Shown here: positions 60,415 to 64,000 of the stretch, piece after piece
How positions within the stretch are numbered: position 1 is the first letter of the stretch
Layout: the number at the start of each line of letters is the position of its first letter
Sequence record: MH816966
DNA from: Escherichia phage FEC19
DNA: 64,000 nucleotides
Reading direction: 5' to 3' (one strand)
The notes under the pieces: model-generated
Told to the model about the DNA's origin: nothing
Databases searched by the model: none
What the model saw: the letters and a program-made list of their open reading frames with translations, nothing else
Program-made: the position numbers and the translations under genes

Positions 60415-60440
60415 AAGGCGCTGAAAAGCGCCTTTACTTT
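60415..60440 (+). terminator. rho-independent terminator after the fibre gene
   Basis: AAGGCGCT-GAAA-AGCGCCTT followed by TACTTTAT. Confidence 0.6.
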
Positions 60441-60460
60441 ATGCGCTATTAAGTTATACT
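60433..60460 (+). promoter_or_regulatory. sigma70-like promoter
   Basis: TTTACT-16-TATACT, overlapping the tail of the preceding terminator. Confidence 0.45.
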
Positions 60461-60488
60461 CATTATACGTTAACAAGTGAGGTGTATT

Positions 60489-61766: not shown

Positions 61767-62147
61767 ATGTCAAATAAGAATGATTCTATTCACAATACAT
61801 ATACTAAAGGCAGCGGAATGGCCTTTGGTGGCAGTATCAAAATTGACGCTCCATCTTGCGATTCTGATGGATTGGAAGTCGGCAACCGAGACTTAACATG
61901 GGTTTTACGTCGCCAATCCGATTTAGAAGAGAAGCTGGAAAATATTGAGCGTTCTCTTGAAAGTCTTCGCGACCAGCTTTTTGGTTGTCCTGAAGATGAT
62001 TCAAAACCTGGACCATATGCATCCAATCATGGTTTGATTGATAATATGCTTGCTATTACCGCTCGATCAATTGGTAAAACTGTGTCCATTGAATCATTGA
62101 TCAGTCAGATTGCGGATGGCTTTGGTGATGCCCATAAGAGTGAATAG
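61767..62147 (+). CDS. hypothetical protein (126 aa)
   Basis: Start refined to ATG at 61767 after AAAGGT; followed by a terminator. Confidence 0.4.
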   Translation: MSNKNDSIHNTYTKGSGMAFGGSIKIDAPSCDSDGLEVGNRDLTWVLRRQSDLEEKLENIERSLESLRDQLFGCPEDDSKPGPYASNHGLIDNMLAITARSIGKTVSIESLISQIADGFGDAHKSE

Positions 62148-62176
62148 TGGGTGTTGCTGATTTAACCGTGAATCGT

Positions 62177-62202
62177 GGGTCGCTGTGGCGGCCCTTTCTT
62201 TT
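62177..62202 (+). terminator. rho-independent terminator ending the plus-strand right block
   Basis: GGGTCGC-TGTG-GCGGCCC (one G-U pair) followed by TTTCTTTT. Confidence 0.6.
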
Positions 62203-62216
62203 GCCTGCCGCGCAGG

Positions 62217-62679
62217 AGTGTACTGCAAATTTACTGTGGGCACAAAATAGTACGGTACTGTCTAGGACTTTTTCTTTGAAAAGTTAGTGGACCAAATGTG
62301 TCGTATTTTGATTAGTGTACTGCAAATTTCATCAAGTACCAAAACGCACCAAAAGACCCATGCCCTAAAAACCACACGAACGCAATAATCAATCGCCGTT
62401 ACAGTTTCCAGCGTTACAATTAGAAAGCGAATGATTCGGCGCATAATAATATGAAGCATAATAGTTCGAAAGCGAATGATTGCGCGCAGAATAATATCGG
62501 TTGGGATTATTCTAGATGTCGGTAATTTCGCATGCGTACTATTTTCGGGCGAAGGGTCGGCATATTTCTCGTTTTAGTTCGGAACGAAGGGAAAGTTTTG
62601 CGCCTTTATAAAACAACGACTTGCGCGACCCGCCTTAACGTTCCGATATAGGTGTCTATATAAAACAACGACTTACGCG
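62217..62679. repeat. direct-repeat-rich noncoding region
   Basis: 16-bp AGTGTACTGCAAATTT at 62217 and 62314; about 30-bp GAAAGCGAATGATT...ATAATAT at 62424 and 62468; 22-bp TATAAAACAACGACTT(G/A)CGCGA at 62606 and 62658. Confidence 0.6.
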
Positions 62680-62802
62680 ATGTTCTCCATTTAACGTAAT
62701 ACCTGTTATGCGAACTAAGGCGCATCTCGATGAAGATTATGCGACGAAGAAGGGAAGGATAAAGGAGTTTTCGCGGAGAAGCGCATCGAGATAGGGGCGA
62801 AG

Positions 62803-62824
62803 AAAAGCCGCGACTAAGCGCGGC
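62803..62824 (-). terminator. rho-independent terminator ending the CpG-rich minus-strand gene set
   Basis: GCCGCG-ACTAAG-CGCGGC with a U-run following on the minus transcript. Confidence 0.55.
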
Positions 62825-62850
62825 CTATTAGTAACGGTGGGTGATTATAA

Positions 62851-63060
62851 TTAAAGGAATAATCCGGCGCGTTTAATTTGCCCAAGGACGTTATCGCGAC
62901 GGCGACGCATAACCGCGTATTTAACTTCTTCTTCGTATCCCCAGCCGCCGATGGATAACATCGAGTTCATATTATCGCATAATTCCTTAAGCTCGCGAAA
63001 CATATCGATTACGGCGGAGCGATGGGCGCGCGCGTTAAGAGAGTTATTCATATTAATCAT
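62851..63060 (-). CDS. hypothetical protein (69 aa), CpG-rich island
   Basis: ORF with codon composition distinct from the rest of the window; followed by a minus-strand terminator. Confidence 0.4.
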   Translation of the reverse strand: MINMNNSLNARAHRSAVIDMFRELKELCDNMNSMLSIGGWGYEEEVKYAVMRRRRDNVLGQIKRAGLFL

Positions 63061-63070
63061 TTTCTTCTCC

Positions 63071-63361
63071 TTAAAGGCTTACGATTTTAAAGAAAGTTAC
63101 TTCGCCGCCGAGTTGCGGTACAGCGATATATTCGCCGCCGATTTCGGTAATCGTATAAACGAAGCCGTTAATCGTTACGCGGTAGGATACGATGTCCTCG
63201 TCGCGATACTTGTAAAGGTCGAGGAAGTTGATCGGCTCATAAATAGCCTCGATAGTCGCGTCGACGTTAAAAAGATAGACGTGTTTAAGTTTTTCACCAA
63301 ATACATTGGAGTTTTCGGAAGTCTCGACGCGAGCGTCGCGGATAGCGGCTAAAGTAATCAT
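63071..63361 (-). CDS. hypothetical protein (96 aa), CpG-rich island
   Basis: ATG preceded by CTAGGAG RBS and the conserved promoter/leader cassette. Confidence 0.45.
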   Translation of the reverse strand: MITLAAIRDARVETSENSNVFGEKLKHVYLFNVDATIEAIYEPINFLDLYKYRDEDIVSYRVTINGFVYTITEIGGEYIAVPQLGGEVTFFKIVSL

Positions 63362-63429
63362 AATATTCTCCTAGTTAGTCGGGAGGGTAGCGACCTATTC
63401 GCTACCTCATCCCCTCTCGATATAAAACA

Positions 63430-63457
63430 TTATAGTCTTAGTGTACGAATAAGTAAA
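63430..63457 (-). promoter_or_regulatory. promoter of conserved right-end cassette (copy 1)
   Basis: Minus sense TTTACT-16-TATAAT with conserved flanks, upstream of 63071-63361. Confidence 0.5.
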
Positions 63458-63468
63458 GCACTTTTTCG

Positions 63469-63771
63469 TTATTTTGCGATAAAATATTTATAAGCCTTAT
63501 CGCCTTCTACGTCGATATACTCGACGATAATTAATTCTTCGCCGCGTGGCGTAACCGTCTCGATAAGGGTAACGGCTTCGTCGTCGGTCTTCGCGAAGCG
63601 GATTGCGCTACGTTCGGCATACTTAATATCGTCGAAGGATAATCCGACGAAGGCGACGGCGCGCGCTTTAATAATGCTCGTTTCGAGTTCCGCGTTAACG
63701 GCGGCGATAAGAGAGCGAACGGTTAAGCGGTCTTCGTCGTAAGTAAGGATAGAAGAGATTAAAGTGGTCAT
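63469..63771 (-). CDS. hypothetical protein (100 aa), CpG-rich island
   Basis: Start refined to ATG at 63771 after GGGAG; its own TTTACT-16-TATACT promoter. Confidence 0.45.
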   Translation of the reverse strand: MTTLISSILTYDEDRLTVRSLIAAVNAELETSIIKARAVAFVGLSFDDIKYAERSAIRFAKTDDEAVTLIETVTPRGEELIIVEYIDVEGDKAYKYFIAK

Positions 63772-63827
63772 AATAAAACTCCCGGTGCTAGTAGAAGGAA
63801 GGGCCATCGCCCGTCTCGATATGAACA

Positions 63828-63855
63828 AGTATACGCGAGTGTACGAAGAAGTAAA
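63828..63855 (-). promoter_or_regulatory. promoter of conserved right-end cassette (copy 3)
   Basis: Minus sense TTTACT-16-TATACT followed by the GTTCATATCGAGACGGG leader, upstream of 63469-63771. Confidence 0.45.
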
Positions 63856-63899
63856 GAAAAAAGATAAAATAATTTATCGCATTTTTATCGAAAAAGTGC

Positions 63900-63927
63900 T
63901 TTACTTTTTTCTACACTATATTATAAT
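63900..63927 (+). promoter_or_regulatory. promoter of conserved right-end cassette (copy 2)
   Basis: TTTACT-16-TATAAT driving a plus-strand gene whose ATG is at 63998 (truncated by the window end). Confidence 0.5.
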
Positions 63928-64000
63928 GTACTCATATCGGGACGGGATGAGTTAACGAATAGGTCGTTAACGCCTCTCCCCAACTAGGAGTTTATTATGG

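What the first reader, a model, noticed from the sequence alone, without database searches (positions are those of the whole stretch)
63386..63971. Covarying hairpin in the 5' leaders of two island genes
About 25 nt upstream of the start codons, the leader for 63071-63361 forms GGUAGCGA-AUAGG-UCGCUACC and the leader for the gene at 63998 forms GUUAACGA-AUAGG-UCGUUAAC. The loop is identical and two stem base pairs differ by compensatory changes (G-C to U-A, G-C to A-U). That is the signature of selection on RNA structure, for example a processing site, stability element or protein-binding site. The third cassette copy carries a shorter GGGC-GAUG-GCCC hairpin at the same position.
Basis: seen in the sequence. 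Interest (0 to 1): 0.7.

Follow-up and report, generated by a model that had tools for sequence, protein, structure and literature searches.

The report
Phage early-mRNA leader stem-loop
Two of three repeated promoter-plus-leader cassettes at the end of an E. coli phage genome carry a real RNA hairpin that evolution has kept paired, most likely an ordinary stem-loop that helps the phage's first messages last or be translated.

Summary
The window comes from a Wifcevirus, a roughly 68-kb E. coli myophage. The finding lies inside its 3.7-kb direct terminal repeat. Three paralogous cassettes sit there, each with a sigma-70-type promoter, a conserved transcript start, a hairpin, a ribosome-binding site and a small orphan gene.

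Hairpins A (63386-63406, minus strand) and C (63951-63971, plus strand) are perfect 8-bp stems with the loop AUAGG. They differ by two compensatory pairs.

About 31 related genomes add one more two-step compensation, three sense-strand G-U wobbles and two single-genome mismatches. The loop never changes. The hairpin caps a longer imperfect stem-loop that starts about 4-5 nt after the predicted transcript start.

Cassette B, and the same cassettes in Kylevirus-like phages, carry hairpins of unrelated sequence at the same place, again with covariation. Some leaders have none.

So an RNA structure is under selection, and sequence matters less than structure. The best reading is a 5'-proximal stability or expression element of early mRNAs (confidence about 0.45). 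A factor-binding site or an RNase III site remains possible. This is a new member of a known kind, of modest interest.

More striking is the surrounding early module, which is about fourfold depleted in TG and CA dinucleotides. That is unexplained.

The parts
63429..63457 (-). Promoter of cassette A: -35 TTTACT (63457-63452), 17-nt spacer, -10 TATAAT (63434-63429), with an A-rich block upstream
   Evidence: Sigma-70 scan, 10 of 12 matches. The sequence block is conserved in all relatives.
63377..63417 (-). Extended leader stem-loop A: outer helix (GAGAGGGG with CCCUCCC), AUGA internal loop, inner 8-bp helix, AUAGG loop
   Evidence: RNAfold minimum-energy and centroid structures. The outer helix is predicted in all variants, with shifts of register.
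63386..63406 (-). Inner hairpin A: GGUAGCGA-AUAGG-UCGCUACC
63359..63374 (-). Shine-Dalgarno CUAGGAG (63374-63368) and start codon (63361-63359) of gene A
62851..63361 (-). Operon A: a 96-aa orphan gene (63071-63361) and a 69-aa gene (62851-63060, phrog_10377 'transcriptional regulator'). The second gene is absent from many relatives.
63828..63855 (-). Promoter of cassette B: TTTACT, 16-nt spacer, TATACT
   Evidence: 9 of 12 matches.
63801..63812 (-). Hairpin B: GGGC-GAUG-GCCC. It is replaced by GAGAGGC-GAUGG-GCCUCUU in Mansfield and by GGGAG-GCGUU-CUCCC in ECO71P1.
63469..63771 (-). Gene B, a 100-aa orphan protein
63900..63927 (+). Promoter of cassette C: TTTACT, 16-nt spacer, TATAAT. It is divergent from promoter B.
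   Evidence: 10 of 12 matches.
63939..63981 (+). Extended leader stem-loop C: outer helix GGGACGGG with CCUCUCCC, AUGA internal loop, inner helix, AUAGG loop
   Evidence: One lineage (L012 type) has CCCGUC, which makes a perfect 6-bp outer helix with GACGGG.
63951..63971 (+). Inner hairpin C: GUUAACGA-AUAGG-UCGUUAAC
63984..63999 (+). Shine-Dalgarno CUAGGAG and ATG of the gene driven by cassette C. The gene runs off the window.
   Evidence: Downstream genes are seen in relatives.

Best explanation
The hairpins are RNA elements of the sense transcripts of phage early genes.

Each of three paralogous cassettes in the terminal repeat has the same layout:
- a strong host-type (sigma-70) promoter;
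- a conserved transcript start (A)UAUCGAGA;
- a stem-loop that begins about 4-5 nt after the predicted 5' end;
- a short spacer, a strong ribosome-binding site and a small gene.

I infer that the stem-loop acts in cis. It would limit access of RppH and the RNase E 5' sensor to the 5' end, or keep the ribosome-binding region in a defined context. Either way the first phage messages would be stable and well translated within the very short infection cycle.

Shown here: the structure is conserved by compensatory and wobble changes. It lies on the sense strand. Its position is conserved while its sequence is not.

Inferred: the transcription start, and the effect on stability or translation.
For: - Structure. 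Both hairpins are in the minimum-energy fold.
- Covariation. A versus C has two double changes. EC150 has an independent U-A to A-U change with kaset as the mismatched intermediate. Three sense-strand G-U wobbles occur in Bas99, Eco4M-7 and the ECML-117 group.
- Generic rather than sequence-specific. Cassette B has three different hairpins in three lineages at the same place.
- Relatives. Kylevirus-like phages keep the promoter and the AUCGAAA start but carry unrelated hairpins. GAAAGC-GAAGUGA-GCUUUC has covariation in 2 of 6 pairs. The others are AAAGCG-AUAA-CGCUUU and GGC-GA-CGG-AAUAGA-CCG-AA-GCC.
- Position. With the start placed at the 7th nt after the -10 hexamer, the Kylevirus-like hairpins begin 2-5 nt, mostly 3 nt, after it.
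- Short leaders. Leaders without a hairpin are very short, 25-30 nt from the predicted start to the AUG. A bound ribosome could itself cover the 5' end of such a leader; that is my inference.
- Promoters. They are the three best sigma-70 matches in the region.
- Context. The region is the terminal repeat. One cited study reports a 3-5 min cycle for these phages.
- Background from established knowledge, not tested here. 5'-terminal stem-loops stabilise E. coli mRNAs (Emory, Bouvet and Belasco 1992; Bouvet and Belasco 1992; both in the reference list seen). The T7 gene 10 leader begins with a comparable hairpin.
Against: - The transcription start is only predicted.
- With a 4-5-nt tail the 5' end may still be accessible. 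B. subtilis RppH needs only 2-3 unpaired nt.
[quoted passage not shown] A hairpin that is not truly terminal may therefore protect little.
- The apical 11 nt (CGA-AUAGG-UCG) are more conserved than the lower stem. Between A and C the counts are 0 of 11 against 4 of 10 differences. Among orthologues, 1 of about 7 events falls in the apical part. A purely generic hairpin does not predict this.
- With 40 nt of one downstream gene included, the predicted fold of leader C no longer contains the hairpin.
- Predicted accessibility of the ribosome-binding site is not high.
Confidence: 0.45

Rival explanations
1. The hairpin is a specific binding site for a phage or host protein that regulates the early genes. 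Examples would be a translational operator that shuts early genes off, or a boxB-like site that loads an antitermination factor. The factor would read the apical CGA-AUAGG-UCG.
For: - The loop and the three closing pairs are invariant in both cassettes in about 31 genomes, except for one change in Bas98. The lower stem covaries. This is the classical pattern of protein-binding hairpins.
- A Kylevirus cassette has a similar apex, CGG-AAUAGA-CCG.
- The element sits in early leaders, as lambda nutL does (established knowledge).
Against: - Cassette B in the same genome and the other Kylevirus-type cassettes have unrelated loops, and some have no hairpin. No common recognition site therefore serves the module.
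- Divergence is low (92-97% identity), and A and C are paralogues. Loop identity is weak evidence.
- The loop is not GNRNA-like and no boxA is present (direct reading).
- No RNA-binding protein was identified. The module's proteins have no Pfam hits.
Confidence: 0.2
2. The extended stem-loop is an RNase III processing site, like those in T7 early mRNAs. Cleavage would trim the leader and change stability or translation.
For: - The hairpin is the top of a longer two-helix structure with an asymmetric internal loop. That layout recalls T7 RNase III sites (established knowledge).
- The outer helix shows some compensatory change in one C lineage.
Against: - Only about 12-15 bp are paired in all, and the lower helix is imperfect and shifts register. 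This is shorter than typical substrates of about two helical turns (established knowledge).
- Cassette B and the Kylevirus hairpins have only 4-8 bp.
- There is no Rfam match.
Confidence: 0.1
3. The inverted repeat works as double-stranded DNA. It would be a palindromic operator at about +17 to +37 for a dimeric repressor that blocks early transcription. One candidate is the 69-aa phrog_10377 'transcriptional regulator' encoded in operon A.
For: - The repeat is a perfect palindrome just downstream of strong promoters.
- A small putative regulator is encoded in operon A of this window.
Against: - Symmetric double changes are not required of an operator.
- Three of the five single changes in the stem, and three of the eight events counted in all, give G-U on the sense strand. 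In DNA these are plain mismatches to the palindrome.
- The 69-aa gene is missing from many genomes that keep both hairpins.
- Cassette B has no such site.
Confidence: 0.07
4. The hairpin has no function. The stems would be quasi-palindromes kept perfect by template-switch repair or by gene conversion between the repeated cassettes. Such processes mimic compensatory evolution.
For: - The cassettes are repeated and recombine. F13 has a duplicated cassette A, and the genes downstream of cassette C differ between genomes.
- Template switching in quasi-palindromes is a known mutational mechanism (established knowledge).
Against: - Hairpins of unrelated sequence are kept at the same leader position in two genera.
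- G-U intermediates are tolerated, whereas true mismatches are each seen in only one genome.
- The variable part of the leader is the spacer 3' of the hairpin, not the hairpin itself.
Confidence: 0.08

Closest known systems
5'-terminal stabilising stem-loops of E. coli and phage mRNAs (ompA 5' UTR hairpin 1, papA, and the stem-loop at the start of the T7 gene 10 leader)
   Same: - It is a short stable hairpin (8 bp, 5-nt loop) near the 5' end of a highly expressed message, upstream of a strong ribosome-binding site.
- Position is conserved and sequence is free.
- It acts in cis.
   Different: - The 5' end is not mapped here.
- The predicted single-stranded tail (4-5 nt) is at the limit of what protects.
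- The apical sequence is more conserved than a generic stabiliser needs.
- It sits in three repeated cassettes inside a terminal repeat.
Lambda-type nut sites (boxA plus the boxB hairpin) in early leaders
   Same: - It is a hairpin with a conserved pentaloop and a variable stem.
- It lies a few tens of nt downstream of early promoters.
- It is duplicated in divergent early operons.
   Different: - The stem has 8 bp, not 5.
- The loop AUAGG is not GNRNA-like.
- There is no boxA.
- No N-like protein was identified.
- The third cassette lacks it.
RNase III sites of T7 early mRNAs (R0.3, R1.1)
   Same: - It has a two-helix stem-loop with an internal loop in phage early transcripts.
- It lies in a leader, as R0.3 does.
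   Different: - It is much shorter, with about 12-15 bp paired.
- The lower helix is poorly conserved.
Pre-early promoter cassettes of the phage T5 first-step-transfer region, and the host-takeover module in the SPO1 terminal redundancy
   Same: - It consists of repeated strong host-type promoters driving small orphan early genes.
- It lies inside a long terminal repeat, the DNA that enters the cell first.
   Different: - No leader hairpin is part of the described T5 or SPO1 cassettes, as far as I know.
- The TG/CA-poor composition seen here is not described for them.

Membership tests
5'-terminal mRNA-stabilising stem-loop (ompA, papA, T7 gene 10 leader type) | A stable stem-loop forms in the 5' UTR of the sense transcript | tested here: met
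   RNAfold. Covariation and sense-strand G-U wobbles.
5'-terminal mRNA-stabilising stem-loop (ompA, papA, T7 gene 10 leader type) | No more than about 2-4 unpaired nucleotides lie between the 5' end and the stem | tested here: inconclusive
   The start is only predicted, as the 7th nt after the -10 hexamer. On that basis the tail is 4-5 nt in most Wifcevirus leaders (3-9 across all variants). It is 2-5 nt, mostly 3 nt, in the Kylevirus-like leaders.
5'-terminal mRNA-stabilising stem-loop (ompA, papA, T7 gene 10 leader type) | Function does not depend on the hairpin's sequence | tested here: inconclusive
   Unrelated hairpins occupy the same position in cassette B and in relatives, which fits. 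The apex of A and C is unusually conserved, which does not.
5'-terminal mRNA-stabilising stem-loop (ompA, papA, T7 gene 10 leader type) | It lengthens mRNA half-life in an RNase E- and RppH-dependent way | not testable with these tools
   This needs decay measurements.
Lambda-type nut site | boxB: a 5-bp stem with a GNRNA-type pentaloop | tested here: not met
   The stem has 8 bp and the loop is AUAGG.
Lambda-type nut site | boxA (CGCUCUUA-like) a few nt upstream of boxB | tested here: not met
   Reading leaders A and C directly finds no such sequence.
Lambda-type nut site | A cognate arginine-rich N-like protein | not tested
   The module's proteins are orphans. No specific search for such a protein was made.
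RNase III processing site (T7 early type) | About two turns of near-continuous double helix, often with an internal loop | tested here: inconclusive
   There are 8 bp plus 4-7 imperfect bp. This is shorter than usual.
N4-type DNA hairpin promoter | A 5-7-bp stem with a 3-nt loop, and a virion RNA polymerase of about 3500 aa | tested here: not met
   The stem has 8 bp and the loop 5 nt. The longest ORF in the 64 kb is 965 aa. Good sigma-70 promoters lie upstream.
Any Rfam family | A match to a curated covariance model | tested here: not met
   Only two chance-level hits, with E-values of 0.43 and 1.6, and neither covers a hairpin as such.

The most novel reading that the evidence does not exclude
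The apical CGA-AUAGG-UCG of hairpins A and C is read by a dedicated, still unknown phage or host factor that co-regulates two of the three early operons. The hairpin would then be one part of a specialised early module. The module's DNA is almost free of TG and CA dinucleotides for a reason tied to how these very fast phages take over the cell.
Probability: 0.15. Interest if true: 0.55.

Novelty: new member of a known kind. Interest (0 to 1): 0.3.

Why it matters
Wifceviruses are little-studied E. coli and Shigella phages. They are reported to have an extremely short infection cycle and to resist most restriction systems without any known genome protection (PMC11990801). Their early expression module has never been described.

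This analysis defines three early promoter-leader cassettes and a conserved leader stem-loop. These give concrete targets for 5'-end mapping and reporter tests. They are also compact strong expression parts for engineering.

The hairpin itself is a familiar kind of element and would not surprise a specialist. The unusual composition of the module around it might.

Tried and rejected
- Rfam search of 62000-64000 at a permissive threshold found only two chance-level hits.
- A promoter-pattern scan of IMG/VR gave mostly chance hits. Only known Wifcevirus or Kylevirus contigs were relevant.
- A scan of 185,579 genomes for GATGAG-N5-CGAATAGGTCG gave 63 hits in unrelated taxa. My own estimate of the chance expectation is about 70. 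So there is no copy in a host or prophage.
- Pfam and PHROG searches of the module's proteins found no function. The only labelled hit is a PHROG called 'transcriptional regulator', for the 69-aa protein.
- No published work on Wifcevirus transcription was found. No paper was found on TG/CA depletion in phage early regions.
- MAFFT misaligned the 3' arms of A and C (A2, A3). I counted pairs on a 21-column alignment in which the bulged C of EC150 was removed by hand (A4).
- Predicted ribosome-binding-site accessibility with 40 nt of coding sequence was uninformative.
- An N4-type hairpin promoter, an intrinsic terminator (no U-run follows either hairpin) and a loop-to-distant-site pairing (no CCUAU seen in operon A on reading) were considered and dropped.

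Full report
**What the window is.** The last 1.9 kb of the window matches 27 GenBank phages of the genus Wifcevirus at 92-97% identity. These are E. coli and Shigella myophages of 66-72 kb. In phage Mansfield the homologous stretch lies inside a 3,673-bp direct terminal repeat predicted by PhageTerm. WFC and WFH were sequenced with a terminal repeat of about 3.7 kb (PMC6563267). By homology the repeat begins near window position 62390.

**The observation.** The three sequences are present exactly as described.
- A: minus strand 63406->63386, GGUAGCGA-AUAGG-UCGCUACC.
- C: plus strand 63951-63971, GUUAACGA-AUAGG-UCGUUAAC.
- B: minus strand 63812->63801, GGGC-GAUG-GCCC.

They sit in three paralogous cassettes (alignment A1; repeats). 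Each cassette has this layout:
- an A-rich block, then GTGCTTTACTT (-35 TTTACT), a 16-17-nt spacer and TATAAT or TATACT;
- a conserved start region, GT..T.ATATCGAGA;
- the hairpin;
- CUAGGAG (GGGAG in cassette B) and the ATG of a small gene.

The three promoters are the best sigma-70-type matches in the region. RNAfold places both 8-bp hairpins in the minimum-energy structure.

**Is it more than chance?** One perfect 8-bp hairpin is not remarkable. The window has 16, against 5.6 +/- 2.4 in shuffles. The arrangement of the differences is remarkable. Four random substitutions in the 21 nt keep all eight Watson-Crick pairs with a probability of 0.006. The probability is 0.0017 if all four fall in the stem.

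**Orthologues.** I fetched the region from 22 GenBank records, three IMG/VR contigs and five metagenome contigs. I then extracted every cassette.
- The loop AUAGG is present in every copy of A and C.
- Stem changes in A:
  - Bas99 has A->G, giving a U.G wobble.
  - Bas98 has G->A, giving a C.A mismatch.
  - kaset has U->A, giving an A.A mismatch.
  - EC150 has the same U->A plus A->U on the other arm, and one bulged C. This restores the pair, so it is a two-step compensation with the intermediate still alive.
- Stem changes in C:
  - Eco4M-7 has A->G, giving U.G.
  - The ECML-117, Ro157lw, SP13, F13 and RCIP0319 group has A->G, giving G.U.
- Adding the two A-versus-C double changes gives three compensations, three wobble-compatible single changes and two disruptive changes, each found in one genome.
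- On the 8 distinct sequences, 96.9% of cells are paired and 3 of 8 pairs change on both sides. The covariation score is 0.344 against 0.143 in shuffles (0 of 500), and it vanishes when partners are slid. In that alignment the EC150 bulge was removed by hand.
- The wobbles are G-U on the mRNA-sense strand. On the antisense strand or in DNA they would be C-A mismatches. This favours an RNA structure of the sense transcript.

**The hairpin is the top of a longer structure.** From the predicted start, all A and C variants fold as follows:
- a 4-5-nt tail ((A)UAUC);
- an outer helix (GAGAGGGG with CCCUCCC in A, GGGACGGG with CCUCUCCC in C);
- an AUGA internal loop;
- the 8-bp helix and the AUAGG loop.

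One C lineage has CCCGUC on the 3' side, which forms a perfect 6-bp helix with GACGGG. The outer helix shifts register in other variants and is less well supported. Removing the inner hairpin from A leaves GGGG-AUGA-CUCC, which resembles B's GGGC-GAUG-GCCC. The inner hairpin therefore looks like an insertion into an older small hairpin.

**Position is conserved and sequence is not.**
- Cassette B has three different hairpins at the same place in three lineages:
  - GGGC-GAUG-GCCC in most genomes;
  - GAGAGGC-GAUGG-GCCUCUU in Mansfield;
  - GGGAG-GCGUU-CUCCC in ECO71P1.
- Pantoea phage PA1 (Kylevirus), an IMG/VR contig (L086) and four metagenome contigs (L100, L105, L106, L110) keep the same promoter and an AUCGAAA start.
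- Their leaders carry unrelated hairpins:
  - GAAAGC-GAAGUGA-GCUUUC and its orthologues, where 2 of 6 pairs change on both sides;
  - AAAGCG-AUAA-CGCUUU;
  - GGC-GA-CGG-AAUAGA-CCG-AA-GCC.
- These hairpins start 2-5 nt, mostly 3 nt, after the predicted 5' end.
- Other leaders there are very short and unstructured, 25-30 nt from the predicted start to the AUG.
- Across Wifcevirus genomes the promoter and start region are almost invariant. The hairpin varies little. The spacer between hairpin and ribosome-binding site varies most.

**Mechanism.** A hairpin of free sequence but fixed position, beginning a few nt after the 5' end of strongly transcribed early messages, is best explained as a cis-acting 5'-proximal structural element. 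It would affect message stability or expression, as described for ompA, papA and the T7 gene 10 leader. That comparison rests on established knowledge. The key references appear in the reference list seen.

Caveats:
- The start site is predicted, not mapped.
- A 4-5-nt tail may still admit RppH.
- RNase E easily scans past a simple stem-loop that is not terminal (PMC9943677).
- The apex of A and C is more conserved than the lower stem. This leaves room for specific recognition.
- I put 0.45 on the stability or expression element, 0.2 on a specific factor-binding site, 0.1 on RNase III processing, 0.07 on a DNA operator and 0.08 on no function.

**Comparison with known systems.**
- There is no Rfam match.
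- It is not a nut site: the stem and loop are wrong and there is no boxA.
- It is not an N4-type hairpin promoter: the geometry is wrong, the largest ORF has 965 aa and good sigma-70 promoters lie upstream.
- It is shorter than usual RNase III substrates.
- I found no published work on Wifcevirus transcription.
- I file it as a new member of a known kind: a leader stem-loop in phage early mRNAs.

**What else is there.** The module that carries the cassettes has a striking composition.
- From about 62450 to the window's end, TG and CA occur at 0.35-0.39 of expectation and CG at 2.2. In the other 62 kb the values are about 1.17 and 1.1.
- In WFC and in Pantoea phage PA1 the same module shows TG and CA at 0.2-0.35.
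- The depletion is symmetric. It holds in all three codon phases, including codon junctions, and in intergenic DNA. The encoded proteins almost lack His, Gln, Cys, Trp and internal Met.
- It starts at the terminal-repeat boundary.
- This is a nucleic-acid-level constraint or a context-specific mutation bias, conserved across two genera. I have no explanation for it and found no description of it.

**Verdict.** The element is an ordinary kind of leader stem-loop whose exact role needs experiments. Interest is 0.3.

Noticed in passing
window ~62450-64000 (also L070 2500-4500 and L064 3000-5500): The early module is about fourfold depleted in TG and CA dinucleotides (observed/expected 0.2-0.39) and twofold enriched in CG. 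This holds on both strands, in all codon phases and in intergenic DNA. The module's small orphan proteins (genes 05-07 of WFC) almost lack H, Q, C, W and internal M. The depletion starts at the terminal-repeat boundary and is shared by Wifcevirus and Kylevirus. It is unexplained.
   Followed up: partly
window 63402-63410 (-) and 63947-63955 (+): A two-codon mini-ORF lies in leaders A (AUG-AGG-UAG) and C (AUG-AGU-UAA). It is preceded by the purine-rich GAGAGGGG or GGGACGGG, and its stop codon lies in the 5' arm of the hairpin. The G/A difference at stem position 5 keeps a stop (UAG or UAA). The AUG is GUG in ECO71P1 and is lost in kaset and EC150, so the mini-ORF may be incidental. An AUGAG motif recurs in Kylevirus-type leaders.
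   Followed up: partly
window 63805-63807 (-): The loop of hairpin B (GAUG) holds an AUG that is in frame with gene B, 12 codons upstream of the start at 63771. In SP13 and F13, gene B is annotated 339 nt long (about 112 aa) instead of 303 nt. This fits that upstream start. ECO71P1 lacks this AUG.
   Followed up: partly
window 62410-62497; L064 5200-5460: Two tandem copies of about 45 nt (AGAAAGCGAATGATT..GCGCA.AATAATAT) lie at the predicted terminal-repeat boundary. Pantoea phage PA1 has about ten CGAATGRTT-type repeats at the equivalent place. They may be a packaging or repeat-boundary signal.
   Followed up: no
window 62217-62232 and 62314-62329; L064 2400-2990: An exact 16-nt repeat, AGTGTACTGCAAATTT, occurs twice just outside the terminal repeat. 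PA1 has about 12 copies of (A/T)TTTGCACTA(T/C), one every 50 nt or so.
   Followed up: no
window 62604-62680: Two copies of CTNTATAAAACAACGACTTNCGCGA lie 52 nt apart in the non-coding part of the terminal repeat.
   Followed up: no
window 60428-60476: A fourth promoter has the same CCTTTACTT -35 block (TATACT as -10). It lies upstream of the gene that starts at 60477, outside the terminal repeat. Its leader is short and unrelated, with no hairpin, and it is conserved in all relatives.
   Followed up: partly
L066, L070, L074, L075, L068, L085 (regions homologous to window 63300-64000 and beyond): The cassettes behave as modules.
- Cassette C drives three alternative first genes in different genomes.
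- An extra 153-nt gene is inserted in operon B in RCIP0363, AV128 and ECO71P1.
- The 69-aa gene of operon A is present in only some genomes.
- F13 has a duplicated cassette A followed by a truncated gene.
   Followed up: partly
L105 leader at -1657; L064 leader at +4504: The long Kylevirus-type leaders look like a tandem duplication of the short leader (AUCGAAACGAAAUGAGG). The first copy has evolved into the hairpin and the second keeps the ribosome-binding site.
   Followed up: no
window 7890, 12913, 17533, 23530, 26339, 27202, 28078, 33474, 40388, 53554, 57653, 57977, 60415: Thirteen further sites with perfect 8-bp hairpins (16 are counted in all, including A and C) against about 5.6 expected by chance. 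They are probably terminators and were not examined.
   Followed up: no
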